Of a stretch of 64,000 nucleotides of DNA, positions 19,580-41,465 are shown in pieces. The notes under the pieces were generated by a model. It was not told where the DNA came from. It saw only the letters and a list, made by a program, of their open reading frames with translations, and ran no database searches. The position numbers and the translations under genes were made by a program. The DNA is from an uncultured bacterium (GTDB lineage: Bacteria; DAOPZR01): NCBI GenBank assembly GCA_964637655.1, contig CAZWUZ010000001.1, positions 599 to 64,598 on the forward strand, given 5' to 3'. The first letter of the stretch is position 1; every line of letters starts with the position of its first letter.

Positions 19580-21121
19580 CTAATTGTCGCTCCCCTGCGA
19601 CACAACGAAGCGCCCAATAACCGGGTTGAAGACGAGCCGTTCGCGATTATTCTGATACCATGCCGCCATGGCGACACTGTCGCCCTCGATATCAACAAAT
19701 GCACGTACCAGCAGTGGCACCGCTGTGCCGTGCCCGTTTATCGATACGCTCGCTGCATCCCCCTCTTTACACCACGAGGCAATACATTCTCCCAGCGCCG
19801 CAATCATCCCGTTGCGCAATGTCAGCAGTTGCAGTTCTTCTGCGTTGCACCTGTCCTCGTGCGTCTGCTGCATGACTGCAGCAAGCATGTCATTGCGTAC
19901 ATCATGCGGCAGCAATTGCAGGGCTGCGTGCAGCATATTGTCATCTTTCCGGCTGGGGTCATACTCGAATATGGTGATTTCGTATATGCCTGTCCGATGA
20001 TTACATGGTAGTGAGCGATACCGCTGTTGCAGGCAGATCTTGAGCAGCGGATATACCGTGCTGTCCTGCAGTGCCGCTCCGGCATATAACCACTTCGGGT
20101 CGAGTTCCGGATCGTTGCGGCGCAGCATGGCGATGATTTGCGGTGTGGCATCACGTTCCCAATGGTGACCGAGTATCACATCAAGCAATTCTGGTGCACG
20201 CGGCAGGGCTGCTGCTATCCGCTCGCAATTCTGCTCGCACGCCAGCGCCGCAACCGCCTGAGTAAGTACATACCGTTTCCATGAGTTCCTTTCATTGTCT
20301 GGCCTCACAGGCAGTTTTGTCAGTTGCGCCAACAACAGGTCAACATGGACTGGCCCGACAGCATACAGCAGTTCAATAGCATGCTGCTGGCTCACACCGA
20401 ATTCATTTTCGCCATCTCCCTTGTGACTGGCTGCGATGCGGGCAACATACCGGCGATAGTCATCACGCGACGGTGTTTCCGGCAGGCCATAGGCTCTCGG
20501 CAGCGGGCGGGAAGCATCAGGGTAGAGCGTTGTATCGCTGTTGTACCATTTGAGAAACACTTCCCCGGTCATTTCATCCGCCGCTTCTCCCGCTTCGCTC
20601 GAGAGCACATACCGCCGCCCGTTTTTCACTCCCCCCAGTAATCCCACACGTTCACGCCCGATACGTTCCAGAAGCAATATGATCAGTTCATCGCCTCGAC
20701 CAAAGCGCATGCAACCACTCTGCGGCATGACGCAGTAGTTCATCGCCGTGATGTACTTCCGGTAATCGTCTGTATCCGGATGGTCGGGCAGGCGGACGCG
20801 CACAGCATCGGCATGGCGCTGTTCCTCGCTGCGCGTGTCGTACCACCAATCCGGCGCGCGAAAGGCCCAGGGATTATCAGGCTGCGTACGGTACAAATCA
20901 TCGGCATAGCCGCTCCGCACGGGCGGGATTGCCGGCTTGATTTGTGCTGAAAAGAGCGGCGCAAGTGAAACCAGAGCGATGGCGCCCAGCATAATCCCGC
21001 CAATCACCACGGCCGCTGCCAATCCGTTGCGCAGTCCGCCCGTCACCATGTCAGCCGGCGCGCTTTCCACAAGACACCGCCCGCTGCCGTCATCCGGCGG
21101 GATACTCACTTGCTCACTCAT
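19580..21121 (-). CDS. N-terminally anchored helical-repeat protein, paralog of 17015..18337
   Basis: TM helix near the N-terminus; motifs shared with the downstream paralog. Confidence 0.55.
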   Translation of the reverse strand: MSEQVSIPPDDGSGRCLVESAPADMVTGGLRNGLAAAVVIGGIMLGAIALVSLAPLFSAQIKPAIPPVRSGYADDLYRTQPDNPWAFRAPDWWYDTRSEEQRHADAVRVRLPDHPDTDDYRKYITAMNYCVMPQSGCMRFGRGDELIILLLERIGRERVGLLGGVKNGRRYVLSSEAGEAADEMTGEVFLKWYNSDTTLYPDASRPLPRAYGLPETPSRDDYRRYVARIAASHKGDGENEFGVSQQHAIELLYAVGPVHVDLLLAQLTKLPVRPDNERNSWKRYVLTQAVAALACEQNCERIAAALPRAPELLDVILGHHWERDATPQIIAMLRRNDPELDPKWLYAGAALQDSTVYPLLKICLQQRYRSLPCNHRTGIYEITIFEYDPSRKDDNMLHAALQLLPHDVRNDMLAAVMQQTHEDRCNAEELQLLTLRNGMIAALGECIASWCKEGDAASVSINGHGTAVPLLVRAFVDIEGDSVAMAAWYQNNRERLVFNPVIGRFVVSQGSDN

Positions 21122-21743
21122 TATCTGCCGTTCCTGTTGCACGACGCACGCGGTTGTTGACCTTCACCGTGCCGTTGTCGACCAGAATCTTGTCCGTCGC
21201 GCCGACCATGCCGTAGGCAGTACCGTTGACGGTCAGCGCGCCATTCTCAATGCTCACTTCGGTCGTTCCTATCGTCAGGGTATGGCAACCCATGATATGC
21301 GTGGTCATCTTCATGGCCGAGCCGGGGCGTACCGTCACGTTCCGCCTTTCGAGCGTCGCTGTCGTCTCGTAGTCCGGCTGCCGCCGCTGCTCGCTGCGCG
21401 ACAGGGCGCGCCCGCGGCGTACCTGCCCGTCAACCGAGACCACGCCGCTGTCGATGCTGATGGCCGCATTCGGCGCGAGCGTGCCGTACGACTTGTTGTT
21501 CACCGTCAGTTTGTCGTCGGCAATGCGCACGCTGATCGTGCCGCAGGTATACTCGAACGTCTTCCTGCCGTTGCTGGTTGTCTGCGCACTGCTCGTCATC
21601 GCGTTGCCGGGCGTCACCGACACAGCATGCGTCCCCATGGTGGTTGTCGAGGCCACGGGCGCGGTGTTGACGGAGCAGGTGCAGGCGGTCAGCGCCAGCA
21701 GCGACGCGAGCGCCAGCAGTATCACCGGCTTGTGCATGGTCAT
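21114..21743 (-). CDS. lipoprotein with two internal sequence repeats
   Basis: Signal peptide LLALASLLALTAC. The repeat LTVNNKSYG...VRRGRA resembles LTVNGTAYG...VRRATG. Confidence 0.5.
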   Translation of the reverse strand: MTMHKPVILLALASLLALTACTCSVNTAPVASTTTMGTHAVSVTPGNAMTSSAQTTSNGRKTFEYTCGTISVRIADDKLTVNNKSYGTLAPNAAISIDSGVVSVDGQVRRGRALSRSEQRRQPDYETTATLERRNVTVRPGSAMKMTTHIMGCHTLTIGTTEVSIENGALTVNGTAYGMVGATDKILVDNGTVKVNNRVRRATGTADNE

Positions 21744-21744
21744 G

Positions 21745-22167
21745 TCAGTTTCCTCCCGCTCGTATGAATGCCTGCAGCATGTGGTTGTACAGCCCCGCCG
21801 TCAGCCACACCAGCAGCAGGTGACCGGTAAAGTACCAGCGGTCATTGCCGCTACCGGCCCGCCACACCCTGACAACGAAATAGAGTACCGGTAGCAGCGA
21901 GTAGCAGAGCATCAGCACTACAGCCGCCAGCGCGAGTTGCGGCGAGAGCGCCGGCAGGTCCTGCGGATACGCGGCAGCAGCAACCAGCGCAAGATACGGG
22001 CCGCGCAACCCGATGTGCAAAGCCGTCAGGATATCCCCCGGCACAACCGGGTTTTCCTGCACTGCCAGCAACAGGGCACAGGCCGCAACAAACGCCGCCA
22101 GGTTGCCGATCTCGATGACAAATGCCGCACCGCCGCCAAGCCAGGCCGCCAGCCGTCGCATGGTCAC
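21745..22167 (-). CDS. membrane protein (140 aa)
   Basis: Four TM helices; 4-nt overlap at both ends. Confidence 0.45.
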   Translation of the reverse strand: MTMRRLAAWLGGGAAFVIEIGNLAAFVAACALLLAVQENPVVPGDILTALHIGLRGPYLALVAAAAYPQDLPALSPQLALAAVVLMLCYSLLPVLYFVVRVWRAGSGNDRWYFTGHLLLVWLTAGLYNHMLQAFIRAGGN

Positions 22168-24872
22168 AGCCCCTCCGTCAGTGCCGGGCTGAGTCGCGCC
22201 GCGGGATGGCGCCAGGTGCCCGGAAAGAGTTTGCTGCCGCGCACGTAGGCGGCGCGGGCATTCGTGCTGTCACCCATATGCTCGTAGGTCAGCCCGATAT
22301 TCATCCACGTGTAGACGATGCTCGGGTCGTAGCGCCAGGCCAGGTCGAACATCGCCAGTGCCTCCGCATGCCGCCCGAGCGTGTCGAGCGCGCTCCCGTA
22401 ATAGTTGTAGTCACGCCCGTTGCGGTCCATCAGCAGCATGCGGTCGAGCACCGGCAGCGCCTCGGCCGGTCGCCCGACGTTGTAGATGAGCAGGCGGGTG
22501 TAGTCGCGCAGGGCGACGATATCGTCAGGGTCATAGAGCAGCGCGCGGCTGCTGGTCGCCAGCGCCGCCTCGTCATCGCCCGACAATTCCTCCGCTTCGC
22601 GGCGCAGTCCGTGCATCCAGAGCATGAAGCCGGGATACGCTCCGCGCACCTGGCGGAACTGCAGGGCCGCGCGCACCGCCTCGCGCGTTTCGCGGCGTTC
22701 TTTGAGTCTGGCATGCGCCAGCGCCCGGTAGGCATGCACCAGCGCGACGTCGGGATTGACCACCAGCGCGTGCCGGTAATGCGTGAGCGACGCCCGATGG
22801 CGGCCGCGCTCCTTGGCGGCCAGTCCGAGCCCGAAATGCGCCAGCCAGCAGCCGCTATCGACTGCCAGCGCCTTGGCATACTCGTTCTCCGCCCGTTCGT
22901 AGTTGTGCTTGACGGTGCTGTAATAGTCGCCGAGCATGACGTAGGGATAGGGCGAGGCGGTCGTTTCCGCCAGGCATTCCTCGGCCAGTTGCTTCCGCTC
23001 GCCCGTGCGATGTTCCGCGTAGAGCCGGCAGAGGCGCAGTTTCGCCGCCAGCGAGCCGTGCGCACCGATGGCGGCGTCCAGGTACTCGCGGGCGGTGAAG
23101 TCATCGTCGCGGGCAATGCAGGCATCGGCGCGCGCGAGCAGTTCGGACTCGGGCAGCGCCGCCAACGCCGCCGCGCGCTCTGCCTCCACCCGCGCCACCG
23201 TTTCGCGCCCGACCAGCGACGCGATCATTTCGACAAACACGCCAGCCGTGTCCTGCATCGGCGTATGGTAGACGCTCATCGTTGACATCACCCTGCCGTC
23301 GCGACCGATGGCCAAATAGCATGGCGTCGTGGCGCTCGGCGAATAGAGGCGGTACTTCCGGTAGAACTCCGGTTCCCAACCGGTATAATCGGTGAGGAAC
23401 GGGTAGGGAAGCGGATTCTGCCCGAGGTACTCTTCCGTGATGCGCCGGTCGACTTCCGGTGCCATGACCACCACCCGCAGTCCCGCGTCGGCATAGCGGC
23501 GCTGCAGTTCCGCCAGCGCGCCGAGATACATGCGGTCCCACGCGATCCAGGTCGAGGCCATGACGAGCAGCGTCGGCGCCCCGTGGAATTCATCCGTGCT
23601 GTATGTGCGCCCGCTGCGCGGGTCACGCATACGGAATTCCGGCATCGGGCCGCCCACGAGATGATGCCCCTTCCACCCCCACGCCAGCCGCACGTCATAG
23701 CCGACCAGCCCGTTGTACGTTTCCGCGTCCGGCGCGAGCGGCATGGCCGTCGCCTCTTCGGTCAGCGGCAGGTCGGTGCGCTGGTTCTCCAGATGCTCCG
23801 TGTAGTACCGGCTCCGGTCAGGCGCGTAGGTGTCGAGCCGCCGCACGGTAAATCGCCGCAACTGCGTCAGGGCGCGGTCAGTGGTCACCGTATACTCGCC
23901 ATCACCATACCCGAAATAGGCGCCGGTGAAACGGAAGACGATCGTGCTGTCACCCACCGTAATGCGCTGCAGGTCGGCACGACGCACCCGGCACTGGTCA
24001 TCGCTGATTTTGCCGGTAAGCAGCCCGAGCACTAAACTCGGCCCGTAGGTCCCCCCCTCGACCGAGCGCGGCGGCAGCGATTCATACCAGCGCAGCGGCG
24101 CCGACCAGACGAGCGTCTGCGTGTCGCTGAAGCGCACGCTGAGCCCGTCGGAGAAATAGGGCACCAGGTGCGTCACGCCGTTATAATGGAAAACACGATG
24201 ACGGTTCTGGCAGTCACTCTCAAAGATGCGCGACTCGTACAGGAGTTTGCCAAAGAATTGCGGCGGCGTGCGGTAAGCCGCGCAGACCGCAGCCAGCCGG
24301 TCGAGGCAGTGCTGCTGCTGCTCCGCATCGGTGATGGTGTTGCGGTCGGACGGCACGCGCCGCTCCAGCGCGTAGCGCCCGGCCAGCGCCACGACAAGCA
24401 GGCCGATCCCCATGATCAGCGCCAGCAGGCGCGCGAGGCGCGGCTGCAGCCGCCCGCGCCGCGGCGGCGGCCCGACATAGCGCCGCGCCAGTTCCTCCGG
24501 CGTGCCGAGCGCCGTCAGCACCGCCGCGATCAGTTCCGGCGGGTACTCGCGCTCCGCCGGGAGCGGCAGCGCGCTCTCCGCCGCCCGTGCCGCCGCCTTC
24601 GCCGCGCGCACTGCGGCCAAATCGGTCACCTTCGCCGCTGCATCGGCTCGTGCCGCCGACTGCGCCGCCCGCGCCGCTGACGTTGCGGCATGCGCCGCCG
24701 CAGATGCCGCAAGGAGTTCCCCGCTCGGCGCCATCCCCTCGGCCAGCCGCGCGAGGATGTGGTCCTCGAGTTCGAGGACGAGGTCGTCCCGTTCCGTCTC
24801 GCTCAGCCCGTGCAGTTGCGCCCGGAATGCCGCGAGGTACTCGCGAACGAGTGGATTATGCCTGCTTGGCAT
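22164..24872 (-). CDS. PadR-associated membrane sensor: DUF1700/HAAS-like N-terminus, Ala-rich linker, TM, periplasmic domain, degenerate redoxin-like domain, C-terminal TPR
   Basis: N-terminus REYLAAFRAQLHGLSETERDDLVLELEDHI has the DUF1700 pattern. Segment LLVMASTWIAWDRMYL...PCYLAIGRDGRV resembles a TlpA/redoxin fold without the CxxC pair. About 350 aa of TPR follow. 17-nt overlap with the PadR stop. Confidence 0.65.
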   Translation of the reverse strand: MPSRHNPLVREYLAAFRAQLHGLSETERDDLVLELEDHILARLAEGMAPSGELLAASAAAHAATSAARAAQSAARADAAAKVTDLAAVRAAKAAARAAESALPLPAEREYPPELIAAVLTALGTPEELARRYVGPPPRRGRLQPRLARLLALIMGIGLLVVALAGRYALERRVPSDRNTITDAEQQQHCLDRLAAVCAAYRTPPQFFGKLLYESRIFESDCQNRHRVFHYNGVTHLVPYFSDGLSVRFSDTQTLVWSAPLRWYESLPPRSVEGGTYGPSLVLGLLTGKISDDQCRVRRADLQRITVGDSTIVFRFTGAYFGYGDGEYTVTTDRALTQLRRFTVRRLDTYAPDRSRYYTEHLENQRTDLPLTEEATAMPLAPDAETYNGLVGYDVRLAWGWKGHHLVGGPMPEFRMRDPRSGRTYSTDEFHGAPTLLVMASTWIAWDRMYLGALAELQRRYADAGLRVVVMAPEVDRRITEEYLGQNPLPYPFLTDYTGWEPEFYRKYRLYSPSATTPCYLAIGRDGRVMSTMSVYHTPMQDTAGVFVEMIASLVGRETVARVEAERAAALAALPESELLARADACIARDDDFTAREYLDAAIGAHGSLAAKLRLCRLYAEHRTGERKQLAEECLAETTASPYPYVMLGDYYSTVKHNYERAENEYAKALAVDSGCWLAHFGLGLAAKERGRHRASLTHYRHALVVNPDVALVHAYRALAHARLKERRETREAVRAALQFRQVRGAYPGFMLWMHGLRREAEELSGDDEAALATSSRALLYDPDDIVALRDYTRLLIYNVGRPAEALPVLDRMLLMDRNGRDYNYYGSALDTLGRHAEALAMFDLAWRYDPSIVYTWMNIGLTYEHMGDSTNARAAYVRGSKLFPGTWRHPAARLSPALTEGL

Positions 24873-25227
24873 TCGCCCGGGAGCCCTTCGCCCCGCGCTC
24901 GCTGATCACCGTGTCGATGGTCGACGCATAGTCGCGCCAGTGCTTGTGCATCCCCGCCACCAGTTCCCGCCCCTGCTTCGTCAGCGAGTAGTACTTGCGC
25001 GGATGCCCCGTGCCGGCGTTATGATCCCACTTGGCAATCACCGCGCCGTCCGTGCGCAGCCGGTTGAGCAGCGGGTAGAGCGTCCCTTCCGCCAGTTCGA
25101 TGCCGTACGCTTCCTTGAGCAGGTTGATCAGCTCGAGGCCGTACTTCTCCCCGTCCCGCAGCACGGAGAGCACCAGCATGTCCAGCGTCCCCTTCCGTAT
25201 CTGCGCCATCCAGTCATTCAGTTCCAT
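24856..25227 (-). CDS. padR: PadR family transcriptional regulator
   Basis: MELNDWMAQIRKGTLDMLVLSVL...YGLELIN...GTLYPLLNRL is a winged-helix PadR signature. RBS GAAGGAGG precedes the ATG. Confidence 0.9.
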   Translation of the reverse strand: MELNDWMAQIRKGTLDMLVLSVLRDGEKYGLELINLLKEAYGIELAEGTLYPLLNRLRTDGAVIAKWDHNAGTGHPRKYYSLTKQGRELVAGMHKHWRDYASTIDTVISERGAKGSRANAKQA

Positions 25228-25333
25228 CGTCGCCTCCTTCGCGTGTTTTTCATCATGTGCACGGTGCAGTCTGTCGTTTCTGCCTAAATCCTGCGACTAT
25301 TACGCTTCATTGCCTATGGCAACAGAAGATTGT

Positions 25334-25894
25334 TTACGGTACTCGCTCTCCGTCAGCATCCACCGAGAGTTCACTGGCATAGCGCCAGGCGGCGATGCCG
25401 ATATGCGCTGCTGCCAGCCCCGAGAGTCCCGCAGCCAGCAACAGCGGGAGTTCATTCAGGGCAAGCAGGGGGCGTTGAATATCGGGACCGACCGGATTGA
25501 AACGCATTATTGTGTCCGGCAGCGGCTTGGCGAATATCGTACCGAGCAACGCCATGAAGGCAACCAGCAGCAGTGCTGCGAGCATCCCACCAGCCGCATA
25601 GAAGCGCCATTTCGGCCAGTCGCAAGCAAGCCCGCGCCTGATTGCCGCGGTCAGCCAGGCCGAAACAATAAACGACGGAATGAACGAGATACATGCCGTG
25701 AGTATCGCGAATAGGAAGGGGTGCAGATTATCGCCCGGATAAAATACCAGCGTATGCCACGACAAATAGGCCGCCGTCAGTACGGCCATGCACCCCACAG
25801 CGGCAAAGTTGGTCAGCGACCATACATAGAGAAAGCCGCGCTTCCGTATGGTGCCGCAGCAGCCGCTCATTGCCCCGCTCCCGCGGCCCTGCAT
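25334..25894 (-). CDS. polytopic membrane protein (186 aa)
   Basis: Five hydrophobic helices. First gene downstream of the conserved promoter at about 26000-26028. Confidence 0.5.
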   Translation of the reverse strand: MQGRGSGAMSGCCGTIRKRGFLYVWSLTNFAAVGCMAVLTAAYLSWHTLVFYPGDNLHPFLFAILTACISFIPSFIVSAWLTAAIRRGLACDWPKWRFYAAGGMLAALLLVAFMALLGTIFAKPLPDTIMRFNPVGPDIQRPLLALNELPLLLAAGLSGLAAAHIGIAAWRYASELSVDADGERVP

Positions 25895-25999
25895 CCGGCA
25901 TCACGCATCGCGTCCATGCCCAGTGCGCTGCTCATGCCCCTCCCCTTTGTCCCGGCGCCGTCATGCCCGCCCTGCCGTCCCGCTGTGTATCGTTATGTC

Positions 26000-26028
26000 A
26001 TAGTACATTGTGACACTATGTATGTCAA
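26000..26028 (-). promoter_or_regulatory. sigma70-like promoter TTGACA-N17-TACTAT with conserved core TTGACATACATAG
   Basis: Read on the minus strand. The 13-bp core is identical to the sites at 31908, 41453 and 49656. This copy also carries TGACA-N7-TGTCA dyad symmetry. Confidence 0.45.
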
Positions 26029-26149
26029 TACGACGTGTTCCGCCGCTGAGGGCGTTATTGGGCTCGTTGATTGATTGTCATTTGGTATTGCTATACGCGA
26101 TTACAGTATCTTTTGGTAATCCCGGTAGGGTCCGCATTTGACTCTGTGA

Positions 26150-26632
26150 TTATTGTCGCTTCTTTCGACAGCGTAGCACTCGCGCCCGGCGGCGCCGGGG
26201 CATACGCGCCGGCTGTCCATGCTGCCCGGTTGCCTGCGTGAATATGGCGGGCGTGACGATGCGTATGCCCCGCCACGCCACCAGTTCCAGCAGATGCGCA
26301 TCACCGGATACTATGCAATCGGCATCGGCCGCGCCAGCACATTCAAGTATCTTATTGTCATCCGGATCGGCGTCGATTGCTTTGACGCACTGTGTCGCGT
26401 TGACCACGGTGAACACATCATGCAATTCCCGGACAAACATCTGCGCCTGCCGCGCGGACAACTTGAACTTCGGCCGCTGCAGCACGTCGCGGATTTCGTC
26501 AAGTATTTGCAACGAGATAAATCCCTGAACGGATCCGTCAATCACCCGTTCGAGCACACGCCGCGGCTCGCCGCCAAACAGCAATGCGGAAATAATGACA
26601 TTCGCATCGAGCACGACACGCCGCGCGCGCAT
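26150..26632 (-). CDS. PIN-domain toxin (VapC-like)
   Basis: VVLDANVIISAL and DADCIVSGDAHLL acidic motifs. The start overlaps the stop of the RHH gene. Confidence 0.7.
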   Translation of the reverse strand: MRARRVVLDANVIISALLFGGEPRRVLERVIDGSVQGFISLQILDEIRDVLQRPKFKLSARQAQMFVRELHDVFTVVNATQCVKAIDADPDDNKILECAGAADADCIVSGDAHLLELVAWRGIRIVTPAIFTQATGQHGQPARMPRRRRARVLRCRKKRQ

Positions 26633-26880
26633 CAGCGCGCGGCCTTGCGCCTGCGGTGCGCCGTGATTTCCCGGTCTACATCGATCGGCTGCAATTTCCC
26701 GCGCTGGGCGATATCCTGCCCCAGGGCGAACAGGTCGGACCAGCGTTCACGTCGCTGCAGGTAAGCCCGCGCCGCTTCGCGCAGGAACTCCGAGCGGCTG
26801 CGCGCCTCGCTCCGTGCCACCCGGTCGATGTCTTTGAGCAATCCGTCCTGAAACGCGATATTCACGGTAACCGTGCGCAT
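26632..26880 (-). CDS. ribbon-helix-helix (CopG-like) antitoxin
   Basis: 82 aa; N-terminal beta-strand plus helices (VTVNIAFQDGLLKDIDRVARSEARSRSEFLREAARAYL). Confidence 0.65.
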   Translation of the reverse strand: MRTVTVNIAFQDGLLKDIDRVARSEARSRSEFLREAARAYLQRRERWSDLFALGQDIAQRGKLQPIDVDREITAHRRRKAAR

Positions 26881-26897
26881 GTTCCACCTCGCCTGCG

Positions 26898-26929
26898 AAC
26901 AATATACAATTATTGTATATTGTTGTCAA
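26898..26929 (-). promoter_or_regulatory. perfect 13-bp inverted repeat AACAATATACAAT-t-ATTGTATATTGTT overlapping TTGACA-N17-TATATT promoter of the RHH/PIN operon
   Basis: Palindrome read directly from the sequence. -35 and -10 are on the minus strand 20-50 nt upstream of the RHH start. Confidence 0.5.
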
Positions 26930-27023
26930 CGCCCCCCCCTGTCGGCACTGTTCTACGCGCCGCGGCGGCGCGACGTTGGCCACCGTATCTCGTGGTATTG
27001 ATCCAAATGTGCAGTCCAGCTAT

Positions 27024-27548
27024 TTAGTCGACTGCGTGCCCAAAGTCATTCCAATATGACGGTTTTACCGTCACCAGTACTATTCTGAAATACTTATTCT
27101 GTTCGTCATACGGCCAGACTGCCAGCATCACACTCGACCGGTCATCGAGGTCATTCAGGTTTCGATATTCATAGCAGTTCCCGGTGAGAAAATAACTTTC
27201 TGGCAGAAATTCCGTACAGGTACTCGCGCGACGGGAAGTGTACCCCGCAGCGTTTATGGCTTTTTCGATATGACTGACAATCTCATCACAATCACGCCAT
27301 CCATCGACTGCCGTGTCTGCAGTTGCACATTTTCGCAATACATAATAGCAGCCAGACTCATCTTCCGCTGTAAGTGTCGTATGGCTGATATCCCACCAGG
27401 CTAATTCATGCGACAGCGGAACATGGACATCAATGTACGATGGTGATAGCGCCACCGACAATCCGCCATAAGCTACCATCAGCAATATTGTGGTAGCGAA
27501 TACTGCAACGCAACCATAAACATATACACGTTTCGTCGAGTTTGTCAT
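27024..27548 (-). CDS. secreted Cys-containing protein (174 aa) in the AT-richer island
   Basis: Signal-anchor VYVYGCVAVFATTILLMVAYG. Local GC is visibly lower than the flanks. Confidence 0.45.
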   Translation of the reverse strand: MTNSTKRVYVYGCVAVFATTILLMVAYGGLSVALSPSYIDVHVPLSHELAWWDISHTTLTAEDESGCYYVLRKCATADTAVDGWRDCDEIVSHIEKAINAAGYTSRRASTCTEFLPESYFLTGNCYEYRNLNDLDDRSSVMLAVWPYDEQNKYFRIVLVTVKPSYWNDFGHAVD

Positions 27549-27728
27549 GATTCATCCCGCCCATAATGGCGTATGAATGTCAGAGATGCAATTCCGGTTT
27601 GGTCACGCGTATTCATGCCATCACCTTTATGCCACCGATGAGCGTTCTTCGTTGAGCCGCACTGGCAGCGATGCGCAGTAGCGCGGCTGGTTTTCATCGG
27701 ATTTTCATCCTGACACCACTGCTAATTT

Positions 27729-28184
27729 TCACCCGCTTTGACACCAAGCGAGCAAATAATTAAGTAATATTACTGCAACAATCAGGCAACAGCAAATTGC
27801 CTGATAGACTTCTGTTTTTCGAGTGACCAGATACGGGGGTGATCCTTCCGAATATATCAACTCGTCGTTATGCTGTACCGTTAGAGACCGTATTGTAAGC
27901 CATGGCCACACCCTGACCTGAATCACGAATTTGTCATTATTGTGGACTAATTCGAACCGAGGGACGAACCACAGTCTAGAGCGTGTGACAATCTTGTCAT
28001 TTTCAACAGCAACTGTTTCTGTGCCACGACCGCGACCATTGTAAGTTACCAGCACCGGTCCGTTCGCGGTAGGAACCTCGATAACTCGTTTGAGCCAACT
28101 ACGGCTTTTCAGCATTGAATTCATTGTCGCTCCTTTGTCATCACCATCTAATTGCACCGAATGATTATCGCCCTGCGGGCGCAA
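27729..28184 (-). CDS. hypothetical protein with C-terminal TM (151 aa)
   Basis: ORF in the AT-richer island with a C-terminal hydrophobic helix. Confidence 0.4.
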   Translation of the reverse strand: MRPQGDNHSVQLDGDDKGATMNSMLKSRSWLKRVIEVPTANGPVLVTYNGRGRGTETVAVENDKIVTRSRLWFVPRFELVHNNDKFVIQVRVWPWLTIRSLTVQHNDELIYSEGSPPYLVTRKTEVYQAICCCLIVAVILLNYLLAWCQSG

Positions 28185-28230
28185 CTATTCGCGCCCGCAG
28201 CGGTGCGATGCTGGCCATTGTGTGCTCCAT

Positions 28231-28716
28231 TTACCTGACCTTGTGTAGATACTTCAGCAACGCAATAAGCAATAGTATTCCACCGGGCACTAACAGGCAG
28301 CCAAACGCTGCATACATCACCTCTCTGGCATTGCGCGGTCGATGCGGCTTTGTGGAAGGAATTCTCTTCAATACAACCTTCGGTTCTTCCCCTGAGTGTT
28401 CGGTCGGAAAGTCATCTGCACTCAATACCTGGCTCACACCAAATGCCCATACCTTCAATTGCAGCAGCATATGTCGCTGATTCTGGTCGAGACAGTCAAT
28501 CACGACGAGCGAGTATTCCGTCTTGATCCCATCTTCATCGAACAGCGGTCCAACCCGGCACCGTGAAACCACATACCCATGTTTCCGGCAATATCTCATG
28601 GCATACGCCACGTAACATCGTTCGAGCCAACCATGGGTAAAGACAAGGAGAGGTAATGCCAGAATCCCGACAACTATGGCAGTGATGATTTCGATGATGC
28701 TCTTGTCCGTCATCAT
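28231..28716 (-). CDS. membrane protein (161 aa)
   Basis: N- and C-terminal TM helices. 4-nt overlap with the stop of the sensor gene upstream. Confidence 0.45.
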   Translation of the reverse strand: MMTDKSIIEIITAIVVGILALPLLVFTHGWLERCYVAYAMRYCRKHGYVVSRCRVGPLFDEDGIKTEYSLVVIDCLDQNQRHMLLQLKVWAFGVSQVLSADDFPTEHSGEEPKVVLKRIPSTKPHRPRNAREVMYAAFGCLLVPGGILLLIALLKYLHKVR

Positions 28717-31463
28717 TGCATTCCAGACGTACTGGTCAACGCCCCGGACAACGCGCCAATTTCTTCGTCCGTCGCGCCGCCCCAGAACTCCGGGAAGCGC
28801 GCGCGCGCTGTCTGCCAGGCATTGCGGGCAGCGACGTGGTCGCCGCGGCGGGCGTGCAGCAGCCCGATGGCAACCTGCGCCGTGTGGTTGCCCGGATCGA
28901 GACGCAGCACCTCGTCGAATTTCGCCATCGCCTCATCCGTGCGCCCGAGCGCTGCCAATGCCCATGCATAGTGATACAGGTCGATATCGTTGTAATCATA
29001 GCGCAGCAACTGCTCGAGCACCGGCAGCGCCTCGGCCGGACGCCGCACCTGGTAGAGCAGCGTGCGGGCAAGCCCGCGCAATTTGCCGCGATTGCCCGGA
29101 TCGTAGCGGAGCGACAGGCGGTTCCGCTCCAGCGCGCGCTCATAATCACCGAGACGGTCGTACCGGTCGACTTCCTCGCCGTAGCCCTCCACCTGTAGCA
29201 GCGCGTCCGACGCCCCGCGCAGCCCCCGGAACAACGTCACCTGCCGCAGCGCCTCCTGCAGTTCCGCCTCGCGCCTGAGATCGCGCAGCGACACGGACAG
29301 CTGCTGCCAGACGAAACTGTTCTCCGGCACTATCTGCAGCGCCTGGCGGTATGCTTCCACCGCTTCGGTATACCGGCTGCGGGCGGCATAACTCTGCCCC
29401 TGCTTGAGGTACGCCTGCCAGCAGCGCGGATCGAGTTCGAGTGCCCGCGCGTACTCGCGCATGGCGCGCCCGTGGTTGCGCTTGTCCGTACGGTAGAAAT
29501 CGCCCAGCATCAGGTGGGGGTAGGGCGAGGTCGTCGTCTCCGCGAGGCACTCCTCCGCCAGCGCCTTCCCCTCCTCGTTGCGGTACTCGGTATAGAGCCG
29601 GCAGAGCCGCAGTTTCGCCGCCAGCGACCGGTGGCTGTCGATGGCCGCCTGCAGGTATTCCTTGCCGGTGAAGTCGTCCTCGCGCGCGAAGCAGGCCTCC
29701 GCCCGCGCCAGCAGTTCCGCCTCCGGCAGCGACGCCAGCGATTGTGCCCGCTCCCGCTCGATGCGCTGCACGGTCGCCTCGCCGAGCACGGGTACCAGCA
29801 GTGCCGCCAGGTCATTGACGCTGTCACTGATGGGCGAATAGTAGCGGCTCCCCGCCGCGGCCACCCGTCCGTCAGCCGCTACCGCGAGAAATACCGGGTC
29901 CATGTCGCATGGCGCGTAGAACCGCCCGGCGGCAAAGTGCGGCGCCTGCCAGCCCGTGAAATCGGAAAGCAGCGGGTAGGGGAGCGGATGCTTCGCGAGG
30001 AACGCGTCGGTAATGCGCCGTTCCACCTCCGGGGCGAGCACCACGATGCGCAGGCCGGTCGCCGCGTAGCGCTCCTGCAGCGCCGCAAAGGCGGCAAGAT
30101 AGAGTCGGTCCCACGGTATCCAGGTGGCCAGCACGGCCACCAGCGCCGGGCGGCCGCGCAGGTCGGCAGACGTATGAAGTATGCCGGTGCGCACCTCGGG
30201 CGCACTGAACGGCACCATCGGCCTGCCAACCAGGGCCTGCCCCTTCCAGCCCGACGGCTGGTGCAGGTTGTACCCGTCCTGCCCGCGGTGCAGGCGCGCG
30301 TCAGGCGGAAGCGGCAGCGCCAGTGCCTCCGCGGTCAGCGGCAGGTCGGTGCGTTCCCCGCTGATATGTTCGCAGGCGAGATGGCTGCGGGTATAGCCCG
30401 GCTCGTCAAGCCGGCGGACGGTGAACGAACGGAGGCGCGGCTGCTCCGCGTCGAGCACCACCTCGTACTCGCCGTCGCCGCAGCCGAAGTAGGCGCCGGT
30501 GAACGTGTAGGTGACGCTGTCATGACGGCGCACGATCTTCCGCACATCGCGGTCAAAGACCCGGCACTGGTCCTCGCTGATCTTCCCGGTGAGCAGGCCG
30601 AGGAGCAAACTCGGGCCGTAGGTGCTCCCCTCGATATCGCGCGGTGGCAGAACCGCGTACTCGCGCAGCACCGGCTGCCAGACCACGGTCTGCGTGTCGG
30701 TGTACCTGACGCTGACCGCATCGGCATAGAGCAGCGGCACAAGACGCGTGATGCCGTCGGCATGCAGCACCCGGTAGTACTGCCGGCATTCACGCCCGAA
30801 GATCCGCGACTGCCCGTGGAGTATTCCGTAGTACGGGCTGCGCTGCCGGTAGGCACCACAAACCGCAGCAAGCCGGTCGAGCAGTTTCTGCCGTTCTGCG
30901 TCTTCCGTCACGCTGATACCCTGCTGCAGCGCGCGCCATTCCTGCGTCGATCGCGCCGCCAGCGCCACGGCCAGCAACCCGGCACACATGAGCACGGTGA
31001 GCACGCGCGCCATACGCGGCGGCAGTTGCCAGTGCTGCTCTTCTTCAGGCGGTGCGCTCTCTTCCGGTGCCTCGTCATAGCGGCGCGCCAGCTCCTCCGG
31101 CGTGCCCAACGCGGCCAGCACCGCCTGCACCGCGGCAGCCGTGCGGGCGGCTGGTGCCGCCACCGCGCTTTCCGCCGCCAGCGCCGCGCGCTGCGCGCGC
31201 ACCGCCGCCAGGTCAGTCACCTTGGCCGCCGCATCGGCCTGCGCCGCCGACTGCGCCGCCCGCGCCGCCGAGGTTGCGGCATGCGCCGCCGCCGAGGCCG
31301 CCAGCACCTCGCCCGTCGGCACCCCGTCTTCCGCGAGCCGCGTCAGGATATGGTCCTCGAGTTCGAGAACGAGGTCGTTCTTCTCGTTCTCCGACATCCC
31401 GCGCAGTTGCGCGCGGAACGCCGCGAGGTACCCGGTGATTATTTCGCTATGCCTGTCTGGCAT
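28713..31463 (-). CDS. second PadR-associated membrane sensor (DUF1700/HAAS-like, TM, degenerate redoxin-like, TPR); paralog of 22164..24872
   Basis: 916 aa. Same architecture and about 80 % N-terminal identity to the first copy. The redoxin-like segment LVAVLATWIPWDRLYL also lacks cysteines. Confidence 0.65.
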   Translation of the reverse strand: MPDRHSEIITGYLAAFRAQLRGMSENEKNDLVLELEDHILTRLAEDGVPTGEVLAASAAAHAATSAARAAQSAAQADAAAKVTDLAAVRAQRAALAAESAVAAPAARTAAAVQAVLAALGTPEELARRYDEAPEESAPPEEEQHWQLPPRMARVLTVLMCAGLLAVALAARSTQEWRALQQGISVTEDAERQKLLDRLAAVCGAYRQRSPYYGILHGQSRIFGRECRQYYRVLHADGITRLVPLLYADAVSVRYTDTQTVVWQPVLREYAVLPPRDIEGSTYGPSLLLGLLTGKISEDQCRVFDRDVRKIVRRHDSVTYTFTGAYFGCGDGEYEVVLDAEQPRLRSFTVRRLDEPGYTRSHLACEHISGERTDLPLTAEALALPLPPDARLHRGQDGYNLHQPSGWKGQALVGRPMVPFSAPEVRTGILHTSADLRGRPALVAVLATWIPWDRLYLAAFAALQERYAATGLRIVVLAPEVERRITDAFLAKHPLPYPLLSDFTGWQAPHFAAGRFYAPCDMDPVFLAVAADGRVAAAGSRYYSPISDSVNDLAALLVPVLGEATVQRIERERAQSLASLPEAELLARAEACFAREDDFTGKEYLQAAIDSHRSLAAKLRLCRLYTEYRNEEGKALAEECLAETTTSPYPHLMLGDFYRTDKRNHGRAMREYARALELDPRCWQAYLKQGQSYAARSRYTEAVEAYRQALQIVPENSFVWQQLSVSLRDLRREAELQEALRQVTLFRGLRGASDALLQVEGYGEEVDRYDRLGDYERALERNRLSLRYDPGNRGKLRGLARTLLYQVRRPAEALPVLEQLLRYDYNDIDLYHYAWALAALGRTDEAMAKFDEVLRLDPGNHTAQVAIGLLHARRGDHVAARNAWQTARARFPEFWGGATDEEIGALSGALTSTSGMQ

Positions 31464-31818
31464 TCGCCCGGGCGCCCTTCGCCCCGCGTTCGCTGATCAC
31501 CGCATCGATCGTCGACACATAATCACGCCAGTGTTTGTGCATCCCCGCCACCAGTTCCCGCCCCTGCTTCGTCAGCGAGTAGTACTTGCGCGGATGCCCC
31601 GTGCCGGCGTTATGATCCCACTTGGCAATCACCGCGCCGTCCGTGCGCAGCCGGTTGAGCAGCGGGTAGAGCGTCCCTTCCGCCAGTTCGATGCCGTACG
31701 CTTCCTTGAGCAGGTTGATCAGCTCGAGGCCGTACTTCTCCCCGTCCCGCAGCACGGAGAGCACCAGCATGTCCAGCGTCCCCTTCCGTATCTGCGCCAT
31801 CCAGTCATTCAGTTCCAT
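31447..31818 (-). CDS. padR: PadR family transcriptional regulator (second copy; start at MELNDW)
   Basis: Protein almost identical to 24856..25227. RBS GAAGGAGG precedes the ATG at 31818. The listed ORF extends 5' to 31920 but the promoter lies inside that extension. Confidence 0.9.
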   Translation of the reverse strand: MELNDWMAQIRKGTLDMLVLSVLRDGEKYGLELINLLKEAYGIELAEGTLYPLLNRLRTDGAVIAKWDHNAGTGHPRKYYSLTKQGRELVAGMHKHWRDYVSTIDAVISERGAKGARANARQA

Positions 31819-31891
31819 TGTTGCCTCCTTCTCGTTTGGTTGTTTTACGGGCAGCGCAACCGCCGTTACGTTCGACAGAGAGTATGCAGCG

Positions 31892-31920
31892 ATATTACCT
31901 TGTGTCGCTATGTATGTCAA
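31892..31920 (-). promoter_or_regulatory. sigma70-like promoter TTGACA-N17-TAATAT with conserved core TTGACATACATAG
   Basis: About 75 nt upstream of the PadR2 ATG; flanked by the 8-bp inverted repeat GCGATATT/AATATCGC. Confidence 0.5.
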
Positions 31921-32039: not shown

Positions 32040-32648
32040 TCAGACTGCAACCAGCATCACTGGGACAAGGACAAACACCAGAAGCATCAGGAGCAGCAGC
32101 ACGACAGCCGCCGTCGCAGCCCAGAAGTAATGGCGCATACCTTCCGCATTCCTGAGTTTCCATGCGGTCAGGGCACCCAGGAGCAGCAGCACCACGGCAA
32201 CGGCGATGGCCACGATATTGTACCGCTCATACCTGCGTACCGGCGGGATATATTCCATTGCGCCGAGCGATGCTATGTAGCGGATGGTTTCCGCCTGATC
32301 GTTCTGCGCATCATGGACTGAGCAAATGGTATAATCGCTCCCGTTGCTGGTATAAGCATAGTCATTGCCCCAAGGATCGCGGGTGATCGTCGCGACGTAC
32401 GGCCCGCTCCACCCGGGCGCCGTATCAGTCAGCAGCTGGCCGAGCGTGCCGGGAAAAAGCGCGTCGGACACGTCAACCCGGTACAACGCCAGTGCGGAAT
32501 TGAATGCGCCAATATCGCCACTGGCAGCGCCGTTCTTTGATCTTTCAACGGAACAGGGGATCTTCGGCAGGGCAATTGCAGCAAATATCCCGATGAGAAT
32601 GACCGCAACACCCCAGCGCTCCCATCGATTCCTCCTGCACTTTGTCAT
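32040..32648 (-). CDS. GspG-like pilin-domain protein, single N-terminal helix and two C-terminal TM helices
   Basis: ALALYRVDVSDALFPGTLGQLLTDTAPGWSGPYVATITRDPWGNDYAYTSNGSDYTI matches the T2SS major pseudopilin globular-domain pattern. No G-F-T-L-I-E leader. ORF extends to 32723. Confidence 0.55.
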   Translation of the reverse strand: MTKCRRNRWERWGVAVILIGIFAAIALPKIPCSVERSKNGAASGDIGAFNSALALYRVDVSDALFPGTLGQLLTDTAPGWSGPYVATITRDPWGNDYAYTSNGSDYTICSVHDAQNDQAETIRYIASLGAMEYIPPVRRYERYNIVAIAVAVVLLLLGALTAWKLRNAEGMRHYFWAATAAVVLLLLMLLVFVLVPVMLVAV

Positions 32649-32664
32649 GCCGGAGTTACCCGCG

Positions 32665-33306
32665 TCAGCGCTCACCGGGATCACCGTTCGCAGCATCATG
32701 GTGGCTTCTTTGACGGCGCACATCCAATTCCGACAGCATCATCTGGCACGCGCTGCCGATATCGCGAGGGATTTCCAGAAACGACGAACCGGGATTGTGC
32801 GCCGGCACCGGCGGCGATCCCGCTCCCGCCTGTTCAAGGAACGGACGCACAATTTCTCCCATGGCAAGTATGCAACTGTATGCCCGGCCCTGGGTCTCCT
32901 GAACAACCAACCGGCTCAGCAACAGGGGCACGACCCGGGTATCCGGCTCGCACATGCTAAAGGTAAATACCTGTCCGCCATTGGCCAGGCGTGTCTTATA
33001 ATCCCTGTCGATTTCCACTCGCCAACCGTCAGGCAATTGCCCTGTATTGAGTTCGAGATCCGTAGTGGCGTCGAGGATAAAACGCGCCGACTTGGCAGTA
33101 TAGTCAGTGTCCGATAGTGAACAGCTGTACAGATACAGTTGCCCGATATCTGTGTCCGGCGGGATACAGTCGCGGACGACCGTAATCTGTGGCGGTGGCT
33201 CCGGCGTTGGGCCGCATGGGGACTCAAGGTACGAGAGAGTTGCGGCAAACACCACTGTCAGCAGCAGCAGCATGGACAGCACGGCAAGCCGTATTCGCGT
33301 ATCCAT
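32665..33306 (-). CDS. secreted protein (213 aa)
   Basis: Signal peptide LAVLSMLLLLTVVFAA; several Cys. Confidence 0.45.
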   Translation of the reverse strand: MDTRIRLAVLSMLLLLTVVFAATLSYLESPCGPTPEPPPQITVVRDCIPPDTDIGQLYLYSCSLSDTDYTAKSARFILDATTDLELNTGQLPDGWRVEIDRDYKTRLANGGQVFTFSMCEPDTRVVPLLLSRLVVQETQGRAYSCILAMGEIVRPFLEQAGAGSPPVPAHNPGSSFLEIPRDIGSACQMMLSELDVRRQRSHHDAANGDPGER

Positions 33307-40794: not shown

Positions 40795-40863
40795 TTATTC
40801 CCTGTTCTCCTTCACGCGCACGATGTTCCGCTGTATCTGCGCCATCCAGTCATTCAGTTCCAT
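40795..40863 (-). pseudogene. PadR gene remnant (22-aa N-terminal fragment MELNDWMAQIQRNIVRVKENRE)
   Basis: About 30 nt including the RBS GGAGGCAATAATGGAACTGAATGACTGGATGGCGCAGAT match the two intact padR starts. The reading frame ends after 22 codons. Confidence 0.55.
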
Positions 40864-41398
40864 TATTGCCTCCACCCTGCCGGGGCTGTGCCCCTGTTGT
40901 CGTTCCGTGCTCCCCATTCCCGGCCGCCGGCATTGGCGACGTCGCGGGAGTATCATTTTCGCTGTAATAGAGCGTGAAAGCGAGCGCCGGGTCCACACCG
41001 AGCCGCCGGCGCTCACGGGTAAACTGCGCCTGGGTGAACGGCCCGTGCACCCTTTCGTCTGCCACGTTCACGAGGTTGTATTCCGTCACCGCATAGTTGA
41101 TATTGCTGCCGCCGTCCGACGGATGACGTTTGGCGATGACCCAGGTACTATCGCATCCGGCAGCATATATCGTGCTGCTGACGAGTATCCCCACCATGTT
41201 TTCACTCTCACGGCGGCCAATCGAGAGTTGGCGAACATCATCGGCGGCGCTCAGTTCGAGCCTGCCCGCCAGCGGGTAATCACTCGCCGGAAAGCCGCCG
41301 CAGGCGGTCAGCAACGCCAGTGCACACAGCGCCAGCAGCATAACTGCGACCGCTTCCGCCATCCGTTCACGCGCCATCTGTGCCATCTTCACCGCCAT
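40850..41398 (-). CDS. lipoprotein (likely start MAVKMAQ...LLTACGG)
   Basis: Lipobox ALLTACGG; beta-rich body; Gly/Asn/Thr-rich C-terminus. Confidence 0.5.
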   Translation of the reverse strand: MAVKMAQMARERMAEAVAVMLLALCALALLTACGGFPASDYPLAGRLELSAADDVRQLSIGRRESENMVGILVSSTIYAAGCDSTWVIAKRHPSDGGSNINYAVTEYNLVNVADERVHGPFTQAQFTRERRRLGVDPALAFTLYYSENDTPATSPMPAAGNGEHGTTTGAQPRQGGGNNGTE

Positions 41399-41436: not shown

Positions 41437-41465
41437 TGTATACTATGTGTCGCTATGTATGTCAA
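41437..41465 (-). promoter_or_regulatory. sigma70-like promoter TTGACA-N17-TATACA with conserved core TTGACATACATAG
   Basis: Third copy of the 13-bp core, immediately upstream of the lipoprotein gene. Confidence 0.45.

What the first reader, a model, noticed from the sequence alone, without database searches (positions are those of the whole stretch)
24950..31820. About 280-bp perfect DNA repeat covering both padR genes, with a third truncated copy at 40795-40863
24950-25230 and 31540-31820 are identical by eye over ~280 bp, spanning the padR coding region, RBS and start. Sequence diverges immediately outside. A third copy survives only as RBS plus 22 codons (MELNDWMAQIQRNIVRVKENRE) before the frame ends. 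That copy lies downstream of another copy of the shared promoter and a lipoprotein gene. This indicates recent gene conversion or duplication. The direct repeats flank a toxin-antitoxin pair and an AT-richer island, a layout that is prone to recombination.
Basis: seen in the sequence. Interest (0 to 1): 0.55.

Follow-up and report, generated by a model that had tools for sequence, protein, structure and literature searches.

The report
Gene conversion between two padR-sensor modules
Two old, diverged copies of a regulator-plus-membrane-sensor gene pair lie 6.6 kb apart, and the first 284 bases of the two regulator genes have recently been made identical by gene conversion; this is a clean but ordinary case of concerted evolution.

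Summary
The repeat is real. Positions 24944-25227 and 31535-31818 are 100% identical over 284 nt (start codon plus 94 codons of padR). Column shuffles gave longest runs of at most 52 nt (whole alignment) or 220 nt (padR only).

It is not an isolated repeat. It is the homogenised 5' tip of two ancient paralogous modules on the minus strand. Each has a 123-aa PadR repressor followed by a 902/916-aa sensor (HAAS domain, one membrane helix, thioredoxin-like domain without cysteines, TPR repeats). The sensors are only 50% identical in protein (dS 0.86), as far apart as homologues from other organisms. dS is 0 in the tract.

Identity falls in steps: 100%, then 86%, about 76-82%, and a 55-70% baseline. 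This indicates repeated gene conversion anchored at the padR start.

Metagenome contigs from sister samples carry other tract haplotypes. Two contigs join copy-2 upstream sequence to copy-1 downstream sequence, as expected for loss of the 6,591-bp unit. Assembly chimeras are not excluded.

The "third copy" is only 41 nt (RBS plus 10 codons). It is old, because a related MAG has it at the same place.

All three copies sit behind the same promoter/operator-like motif. This is a known kind of event and of modest interest.

The parts
24944..25227 (-). Perfect conversion tract, copy 1 (padR1 start codon plus codons 1-94, which include the winged-helix DNA-binding domain)
   Evidence: 100% identical to 31535-31818; dS = 0; shuffle tests
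31535..31818 (-). Perfect conversion tract, copy 2 (padR2 start codon plus codons 1-94)
24856..25227 (-). padR1, 123 aa, short PadR-type winged-helix repressor
   Evidence: Pfam PF03551, 68.7 bits against cutoff 27, residues 19-89; best solved relatives are short PadR/LmrR-type proteins
31447..31818 (-). padR2, 123 aa; differs from padR1 only at A101V, T105A, S115A and K120R in the C-terminal helix region
   Evidence: translations
22164..24872 (-). Sensor 1, 902 aa: N-terminal HAAS domain, one membrane helix (about aa 145-165), thioredoxin-like domain lacking CxxC, C-terminal TPR repeats. Its start overlaps the padR1 stop.
   Evidence: Pfam HAAS 36.9 bits (cutoff 27), weak Redoxin, TPR; hydropathy and alignment
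28713..31463 (-). Sensor 2, 916 aa, same architecture, 50-51% identical to sensor 1
22839..25244 (-). Extended nucleotide homology of module 1 to module 2 (29412-31835), 72% overall, with identity rising towards the padR start
26000..26028 (-). Promoter-like site P1 (TTGACA, 17 nt, TACTAT) with the dyad ACATAGTG-T-CACAATGT in the spacer; drives membrane-protein ORF, padR1 and sensor 1
   Evidence: (D7)
31892..31920 (-). Promoter-like site P2 (TTGACA, 17 nt, TAATAT) with the same operator-like spacer, directly upstream of padR2
41437..41465 (-). Promoter-like site P3 with the same -35 and spacer motif, upstream of lipoprotein A and the padR 5' relic
40833..40873 (-). Third copy: a 41-nt relic of the RBS plus padR codons 1-10
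   Evidence: 40/41 to copy 2; conserved at the orthologous site in L002
40795..40863 (-). 22-codon ORF that begins with the relic (MELNDWMAQIQRNIVRVKENRE*); probably not a gene
   Evidence: All 6 nt differences from L002 are non-synonymous, and in L002 the stretch is read in frame as the tail of lipoprotein A
40850..41386 (-). Lipoprotein A gene (lipobox LLTAC); its stop overlaps the relic
   Evidence: translation; the 178-aa form is on record
25334..25870 (-). 178-aa multi-pass membrane protein ORF between P1 and padR1 (not a lipoprotein, no family hit)
   Evidence: 99.4% identical copies in L022 and L023
26150..26880 (-). RHH antitoxin (26632-26880) and PIN_3 toxin (26150-26632) pair inside the 6.6-kb unit
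   Evidence: Pfam, TIGR00305
27000..28712 (-). AT-richer segment with three small membrane-type ORFs of unknown family
   Evidence: GC 0.46-0.51; no Pfam, NCBIfam, PADLOC or PHROGs hits
25245..31835 (.). 6,591-bp unit (one repeat plus the intervening DNA) that is missing from the path of contigs L001 and L015

Best explanation
The window carries two ancient paralogous signalling modules in direct orientation, 6.6 kb apart. Each module is a short PadR repressor gene that overlaps the start of a gene for a single-pass membrane sensor. The sensor's cytoplasmic N-terminal HAAS domain is the predicted partner of PadR.

Homologous recombination between the modules (non-reciprocal gene conversion) has repeatedly copied the padR-proximal end of one module onto the other. 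The latest event made the start codon plus 94 codons identical (284 nt, at most 299 nt). Older events left 86% identity in the rest of padR and 76-82% in the first ~500 nt of the sensors. Beyond that lies a 55-70% baseline.

The donor sequence type is that of module 2. The tract is 92% identical to the module-2-like padR of the related MAG (L002) but only 80% identical to the padR of L003. L003's sensor is the closest match to the C-terminal end of sensor 1.

Inferred consequence: both repressors have the same DNA-binding domain and should bind the same operator-like dyad. That dyad sits in the spacer of the three shared promoters (P1, P2, P3). Two different sensors would then feed one regulon.

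The identical direct repeats are also a substrate for deletion of the 6,591-bp unit. That unit holds the padR2 3' part, sensor 2, the AT-rich ORFs, the PIN/RHH pair, P1 and the membrane ORF. Contigs with exactly that junction exist in sister samples.

Shown: the identity, its significance, the paralogy, the gradient, the strain haplotypes and the hybrid contigs. Inferred: RecA-type mechanism, direction of conversion, operator function, regulatory convergence, and that the hybrid contigs are real molecules.
For: - Tract and significance: 284-nt perfect run. Shuffle maxima were 52 and 220 nt.
- Synonymous divergence: dS is 0 over 70 synonymous sites, against 0.46 in padR codons 95-123 and 0.86 in the sensors.
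- Age of the paralogues: sensors are 49.8% identical in protein. Pairs across organisms are 53-58% identical. Only three full-length homologues were found in the large protein database.
- Stepwise identity gradient from the padR start.
- Tree conflict: the tract is 100% between the paralogues but 92.3% to L002 and 79.6% to L003. In the next 88 and 190 nt the paralogues are no closer to each other than to L002. Sensor 1 aa 796-902 is 64-72% identical to L003 but 34-48% to sensor 2.
- Strain haplotypes inside the tract: one SNP in L001, an 11-SNP patch with only one amino-acid change in L015, and a related patch in L022.
- Hybrid contigs L001 and L015 run copy-2 upstream, tract, copy-1 downstream.
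- L022, from another sample, independently shows the P1, membrane ORF, padR, copy-1-downstream order at 99.1%.
- Domains: PadR and HAAS are both above the Pfam cutoffs. The HAAS-PadR dyad is described in PMC11237479.
- Promoter/operator motif: three copies in the window against 0 expected. It recurs upstream of padR in L002, L003, L018 and L021.
Against: - The window is evidently a metagenome-assembled contig. Its exact proteins sit on one 66,893-bp NCBI contig, and the only close genome match is an uncultured MAG.
- A 284-nt repeat is a collapsed node in a short-read assembly graph. Perfect identity could therefore hide a few real differences, for example an L022-like patch.
- The sample that gave hybrid contig L001 also gave L023. 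L023 carries the PIN 3' end, P1 and the membrane ORF, and stops 30 nt before the repeat. The 6.6-kb unit is therefore present in that sample, and L001 could be a chimeric path.
- No contig other than the window shows the tract joined to the padR2 3' end.
- The direction of conversion rests on only two outgroup loci.
- Operator binding and regulatory convergence are untested.
Confidence: 0.8

Rival explanations
1. Assembly artefact. The two padR copies are similar but not identical, and the assembler collapsed them into one node and wrote it twice. Alternatively, the tandem order is a loop resolution, and the 6.6-kb unit is really a separate circle or lies elsewhere.
For: The source is evidently a metagenome-assembled contig: its exact proteins sit on one 66,893-bp NCBI contig, and the only close genome match is an uncultured MAG. 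The unit is bounded exactly by the repeat, so graph topology cannot separate tandem from chromosome plus circle. Sister-sample contigs break near the repeat (L023 ends 30 nt before it). Other strains carry SNP patches inside the tract.
Against: The sharp drop from 100% to 86% and then about 72% at both ends remains whatever the assembler did. L022, from an independent sample, links P1 and the membrane ORF to the copy-1 padR 3' end through haplotype-specific SNPs spaced less than 127 nt apart. That fits the tandem order and contradicts a circle carrying the sensor-2 side. L001 shows a patch-free tract joined to copy-1 downstream. No replication, integrase or transposase gene was found in the unit.
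Confidence: 0.12
2. Recent acquisition rather than conversion. The ancestral state is one module (P2, padR, sensor 1, as in L001 and L015). The 6.6-kb unit entered by a single crossover of a circular DNA carrying a closely related padR, which created the two identical repeats at once.
For: Hybrid contigs with exactly the single-module junction exist. The unit holds a toxin-antitoxin pair and AT-rich DNA typical of acquired material. The T2SSG-like gene upstream of padR is a conserved neighbour in a distant relative, L019.
Against: Single-crossover integration does not make the two copies identical unless donor and recipient already matched over 284 nt while differing by 14-28% just beyond. That itself requires earlier exchange. 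The graded identity over about 900 nt indicates long co-residence of the two modules. No mobility genes or att-like repeats were found.
Confidence: 0.07
3. Strong purifying selection on the DNA-binding domain alone keeps the two 5' parts identical.
For: The N-terminal 94 residues are the most conserved part of this PadR subfamily; all relatives start MEL(N/H/Q)(D/E)WMAQIRKGTLD.
Against: Selection on the protein does not remove synonymous differences. There are 0 differences at about 70 synonymous sites, against pS of 0.34-0.51 next door. Orthologues that keep the same protein motifs differ at 8-20% of tract nucleotides.
Confidence: 0.01

Closest known systems
Gene conversion between duplicated bacterial genes (for example tufA/tufB of Salmonella; from my own knowledge, not checked here)
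   Same: Intrachromosomal paralogues are kept identical by non-reciprocal homologous recombination. Synonymous differences are erased. The tract is sharply bounded and embedded in more diverged flanks.
   Different: Only the 5' three-quarters of a small regulator gene is homogenised here. The copies are direct repeats 6.6 kb apart, so deletion is also possible. The linked sensor genes stay about 50% diverged.
HAAS-PadR-like wHTH two-gene signalling dyads (PMC11237479)
   Same: A standalone PadR winged-helix gene lies next to, and overlaps, a gene whose product starts with a HAAS domain followed by a membrane segment and a sensory region. The GxP-containing motif (ALGTPEELARRY) is present in both sensors.
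   Different: The paper lists fusions to PspC, LiaF-type TM domains, Toastrack, FtsX-like, FtsW-like and other multi-TM domains. Here the sensory part is a single-pass extracytoplasmic region with a cysteine-less thioredoxin-like domain and TPR repeats. Only three full-length homologues were found. No function has been tested.
Short PadR regulators such as LmrR (PDB 3f8b) and the PadR-family protein 5h20
   Same: About 110-125 aa, with one winged-helix domain plus a C-terminal helix. Sequence E-values to solved structures are 1e-11 to 3e-16. A dyad overlaps the gene's own promoter, as expected for autorepression.
   Different: The putative operator reads ACAT-N9-ATGT rather than the ATGT-N8-ACAT that I recall for characterised PadR proteins. 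Binding is untested.
Deletion between direct repeats by homologous recombination
   Same: Identical 284-nt direct repeats flank a 6.3-kb insert. Contigs L001 and L015 have the exact recombinant junction.
   Different: It is unproven that these contigs are real molecules rather than assembly paths through the repeat.

Membership tests
PadR family (Pfam PF03551) | Winged helix-turn-helix domain scoring above the Pfam gathering threshold | tested here: met
   68.7 bits against cutoff 27, residues 19-89
Short (subfamily-2, LmrR-like) PadR | About 110-125 aa with a single C-terminal helix after the wHTH and no large C-terminal domain | tested here: met
   123 aa. The best solved matches are 102-131-aa PadR proteins aligned over residues 3-112. 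No structure was predicted.
HAAS-PadR dyad (PMC11237479) | HAAS-domain protein encoded next to a standalone PadR wHTH gene | tested here: met
   PF22564 HAAS scores 36.9 and 39.0 bits against cutoff 27, at residues 11-48 and 12-45 of the two sensors. Each sensor start overlaps the padR stop by 17 nt. The same adjacency occurs in L003, L018, L019 and L021.
HAAS-PadR dyad (PMC11237479) | Conserved GxP motif in the kinked third helix | tested here: inconclusive
   Both sensors carry ALGTPEELARRY (G-T-P) at about aa 117-131. It lies outside the stretch matched by the Pfam model, and no structure was predicted.
HAAS-PadR dyad (PMC11237479) | HAAS transmits a signal to PadR by direct contact | not testable with these tools
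   Needs binding or genetic experiments.
Gene conversion tract | Identity run far longer than flanking divergence predicts | tested here: met
   284 nt against shuffle maxima of 52 and 220 nt
Gene conversion tract | Loss of synonymous divergence inside the tract only | tested here: met
   dS is 0, against 0.46 and 0.86
Gene conversion tract | Tree conflict: the paralogues group together inside the tract but with homologues from other genomes outside it | tested here: met
   (only two outgroup loci from one MAG plus partial contigs)
Gene conversion tract | Dependence on the homologous recombination machinery | not testable with these tools
   Needs genetics in a cultured host.
Acidobacterial PadR paralogue family (NCBIfam TIGR03433) | Score above the curated cutoff | tested here: not met
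   69.1 bits against cutoff 101.8
Type II toxin-antitoxin pair (PIN/RHH) | Adjacent small RHH and PIN genes with an autoregulatory promoter | tested here: met
   PIN_3 84.4 bits, RHH_1 26.4 bits, TIGR00305. The stop and start overlap at 26632. The promoter-like site 26929-26901 overlaps a perfect 13-nt palindrome. Activity is untested.
Mobile genomic island (for the 6.6-kb unit) | Integrase, transposase or replication gene, or att-type terminal repeats other than the padR repeat | tested here: not met
   No such domains. No tRNA genes in the window. No terminal repeats.

The most novel reading that the evidence does not exclude
The conserved RBS plus padR 5' segment may act as a recurrent recombination joint in this lineage. 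It occurs three times in the window and twice in the related MAG, always starting at the same point, the Shine-Dalgarno sequence, behind the same promoter/operator. Sensor-bearing blocks would then be gained, lost and swapped behind one shared DNA-binding head. Concerted evolution would keep all heads on one operator, giving a modular 'one repressor head, several sensors' system that differs between strains.
Probability: 0.15. Interest if true: 0.5.

Novelty: new member of a known kind. Interest (0 to 1): 0.3.

Why it matters
This is a clean natural example of partial gene conversion. It homogenises only the DNA-binding part of two paralogous repressors and leaves their sensors 50% diverged. 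If the regulatory inference holds, concerted evolution can hold two different sensory inputs on one operator and one regulon.

It adds an undescribed sensor architecture to the recently defined HAAS-PadR dyads: HAAS, one membrane helix, a cysteine-less thioredoxin-like domain and TPR repeats.

In practice, the 284-nt repeat is a likely source of mis-joins and strain-level structural variation in assemblies of this uncultured lineage.

Tried and rejected
- **Third copy as a recent truncation or a functional small gene.** Rejected. The 41-nt relic and a 22-codon frame are present at the orthologous site of L002. All six nucleotide differences change the amino acid. In L002 the stretch is read in frame as the tail of lipoprotein A.
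- **Selection alone.** Rejected by dS = 0.
- **The 6.6-kb unit as a mobile element.** No integrase, transposase or Rep domains in Pfam, NCBIfam, PADLOC or PHROGs. No tRNA. No terminal repeats.
- **RNA element in the shared 5' region.** No Rfam hit in the whole window.
- **More relatives.** The genome collection gave one MAG with two loci. The metagenome scan gave only the same organism plus distant PadRs. The sensor search gave three proteins.
- **Exact-protein look-ups.** padR2 and the T2SSG-like gene were not on record, so no independent contig shows the tract joined to the padR2 3' end.
- **Single-module strains.** The idea that samples yielding hybrid contigs lack the 6.6-kb unit was weakened by L023, from the same sample as L001.

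Full report
**Observation**

A self-comparison of the window shows one long homology, 22839-25244 against 29412-31835, at 72% identity. Inside it, at an offset of 6591, is a perfect run of 284 nt: 24944-25227 = 31535-31818. The run is bounded by mismatches at 24943 and 25228.

Upstream, 14 of the next 17 positions still match. This is the Shine-Dalgarno region, up to 25244/31835. Homology then stops completely. Downstream, identity drops to 86% for the last 88 nt of padR and continues at lower levels through the whole next gene.

Shuffling the 1968 aligned columns gave a longest run of 52 nt in 10,000 trials. Shuffling only the 389 padR+RBS columns gave at most 220 nt in 100,000 trials. The claim that sequence diverges immediately outside holds only on the upstream side.

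**What the repeated unit is**

All genes here are on the minus strand. Each copy is a two-gene module.

- The first gene is padR (24856-25227 and 31447-31818, 123 aa). It scores 68.7 bits to Pfam PadR against a cutoff of 27. Its closest solved relatives are short PadR/LmrR-type proteins.
- The second gene overlaps the padR stop by 17 nt and encodes 902 aa (22164-24872) or 916 aa (28713-31463).
- Both large proteins begin with a HAAS domain above the Pfam cutoff.
- Both carry the motif ALGTPEELARRY and have a single hydrophobic helix near residue 150.
- After the helix comes an extracytoplasmic region. It holds a weak thioredoxin-fold match in which the CxxC position reads STWIAWD or ATWIPWD, so it has no redox cysteines. 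C-terminal TPR repeats follow.

HAAS proteins paired with a standalone PadR have been proposed as an alternative two-component system, in which HAAS relays a membrane or sensor signal to the repressor (PMC11237479). This sensor architecture is not among those listed there. It is also rare: the large protein database returned only the two window proteins and one MAG protein.

**Age of the paralogues and evidence for conversion**

The two sensors are 49.8% identical in protein (dS 0.86, dN 0.43). That is no closer than either is to homologues from other organisms, which are 53-58% identical (L003, L018, L021).

In contrast, padR codons 1-94 have no difference at about 70 synonymous sites. Codons 95-123 have dS 0.46. 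Selection on the protein cannot erase synonymous differences, so the identity is due to DNA exchange.

Identity between the modules falls in steps, measured from the padR start:

| Region | Identity between modules |
|---|---|
| nt 1-284 | 100% |
| rest of padR | 86% |
| next ~500 nt | about 76-82% |
| beyond ~880 nt | 55-70% (cross-organism baseline) |

This pattern fits repeated conversion events of different ages that all include the padR start.

Comparison with the one related genome found gives the expected tree conflict. That genome is a MAG of an uncultured bacterium, loci L002 and L003.

- In the tract the two window copies are identical, but 92.3% identical to L002 and 79.6% to L003.
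- In the next 88 and 190 nt they are no closer to each other than to L002.
- The C-terminal 100 residues of sensor 1 are 64-72% identical to the L003 sensor but only 34-48% to sensor 2.

Module 1 therefore resembles L003 at its far end, while its padR end now carries module-2/L002-type sequence. This points to module 2 as the donor type. That direction is an inference from only two outgroup loci.

**Population evidence**

Short contigs from sister metagenomes carry the same genes at 99-100% identity, with different haplotypes inside the tract.

- **L022** (JGI 3300076298) has P1, the membrane ORF, padR and the copy-1 downstream sequence, as in the window. It also has a T at padR nt 48 and seven changes at nt 168-210.
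- **L015** (3300076266) has 309 nt identical to the copy-2 upstream region, then an 11-SNP patch at nt 117-210 with one amino-acid change, then 344 nt identical to copy-1 downstream.
- **L001** (3300076261) has copy-2 upstream, including the two RBS-proximal diagnostic bases, followed by the tract with T48 and then copy-1 downstream and sensor 1.

Most patch states also occur in L002 or L003. They are therefore alleles from within the family rather than sequencing errors.

L001 and L015 are exactly what recombination between the two direct repeats would produce: loss of the 6,591-bp unit 25245-31835. They could instead be the single-module state before that unit was inserted. I cannot exclude assembly chimeras. 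L023, from the same sample as L001, carries the PIN 3' end, P1 and the membrane ORF, and stops 30 nt before the repeat. L022 argues that the tandem order in the window is real and not a loop artefact.

**The third copy**

Homology to padR covers only 40833-40873, which is the Shine-Dalgarno sequence plus ten codons.

The related MAG has the same element at the orthologous place, after the lipoprotein A orthologue. It is followed by a frame of the same length. After that, L002 carries:

- an intact 237-aa lipoprotein B gene;
- a padR whose start codon is ACG;
- a sensor cut down to about 100 residues;
- the orthologue of window gene 21114-21743.

In the window, lipoprotein B is a 28-codon frameshifted stub, and homology to L002 ends near 40730.

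The relic is therefore old, not a recent truncation. The six nucleotide differences in the 22-codon frame all change the amino acid, and in L002 the stretch is in frame with lipoprotein A. I therefore do not regard it as a gene.

All padR-type starts share the same upstream limit of homology, at the Shine-Dalgarno sequence, but sit behind unrelated DNA. This holds for three starts in the window and two in L002.

**Shared promoter**

The motif TTGACATACATAGYGWCACA occurs exactly three times in the window, against 0 expected. Each time it is the -35 box and spacer of a promoter-like site that heads an operon containing a padR start:

- P1 at 26000-26028
- P2 at 31892-31920
- P3 at 41437-41465

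The spacer holds an imperfect dyad, ACAT-N9-ATGT, best preserved in P1. The same layout is found upstream of padR in L002, L003, L018 (a perfect CATAG-N5-CTATG) and L021. This suggests autorepression by PadR.

Because conversion has made the two DNA-binding domains identical, both proteins should bind all three sites. The four differences between the proteins (A101V, T105A, S115A, K120R) lie in the C-terminal helix region, just past the tract. All of this paragraph's functional reading is inference.

**Content between the repeats**

The unit contains the following, listed from 25 kb to 32 kb in window coordinates (the genes are read from the other end):

- a 178-aa membrane protein ORF, which is not a lipoprotein;
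- P1;
- a PIN_3/RHH toxin-antitoxin pair with its own strong promoter-like site overlapping a perfect 13-nt palindrome;
- three small ORFs of unknown family in DNA of 46-51% GC;
- sensor 2.

No integrase, transposase, replication gene, tRNA or terminal repeats were found. None of this DNA is present in L002 or L003.

**Verdict**

The best explanation is recent gene conversion between two ancient, tandemly placed PadR-HAAS sensor modules, layered on older conversion events. The identical repeats now allow deletion or gain of the 6.6-kb unit. My confidence in this explanation is about 0.8.

The main caveat is that the window is evidently a metagenome-assembled contig. Exact identity and linkage through a 284-nt repeat need read-level confirmation.

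The phenomenon is well known and the module belongs to a described class, so novelty and interest are modest.

Noticed in passing
window 26898-26929: The strongest promoter-like site in the region (TTGACA, 17 nt, TATATT, 11 of 12 matches) lies upstream of the RHH antitoxin gene. It overlaps a perfect 13-nt palindrome (AACAATATACAAT / ATTGTATATTGTT), the layout expected for antitoxin autoregulation.
   Followed up: partly
window 32040-32723, 54221-54637, 54992-55297, 58967-59341, 62495-62818: There are five paralogous T2SSG-type pseudopilin-like genes in the window, with short DNA repeats among them (for example 54346-54473 / 55036-55163 at 81% and 59090-59153 / 62612-62675 at 81%). One of them is the conserved upstream neighbour of padR, also seen in the groundwater contig L019.
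   Followed up: partly
window 52178-52431 and 60134-60387; 53454-53533 and 61452-61531: Two further diverged direct repeats (73% and 80%) lie inside the 707-aa and 542-aa ORFs, which have no Pfam family. They suggest another paralogous gene pair.
   Followed up: no
window 962-1104 and 2422-2564: A 144-nt direct repeat at 75% identity falls within or next to the 487-aa ORF 1122-2585, which has no family.
   Followed up: no
window 43068-49628: A very long ORF (2186 aa, minus strand) with a coding-like GC3 of 0.81. It was not analysed.
   Followed up: no
window 25931-25939 (ends of L016 and L017): Two contigs from independent assemblies (JGI 3300076265 and Logan SRR12447103) are 100% identical to the window and both stop within 9 nt of each other. 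The stop is in the G+C-rich stretch between P1 and the membrane ORF. The reason is unknown; it could be a coverage gap or a strain breakpoint.
   Followed up: no
L002 1907-2537: In the related MAG the module-2-like padR has ACG in place of the ATG start and a W6G change. Its sensor is cut to about 100 residues (HAAS domain only). This looks like a decaying module.
   Followed up: partly
window 40700-40786: A 28-codon stub of a lipoprotein gene that is intact (237 aa) in L002. It has a 2-nt deletion, after which homology is lost near 40730, where a block of about 9 kb begins that has no counterpart in L002 or L003. The block holds radical SAM, AAA ATPase, DUF1257, TPR, T2SSE-type ATPase and pseudopilin-like genes.
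   Followed up: partly
window 22164-24872 and 28713-31463 (about aa 440-450): The thioredoxin-like domain of both sensors lacks the CxxC cysteines (STWIAWD / ATWIPWD). It is unlikely to be redox-active and may be a binding domain.
   Followed up: no
window 24636-24790 / 31227-31381: A patch of 84-88% identity falls inside the sensor 5' region, which encodes the alanine-rich linker LAASAAAHAATSAARAAQSAA. It is higher than its surroundings and is probably the remnant of an older conversion event.
   Followed up: partly
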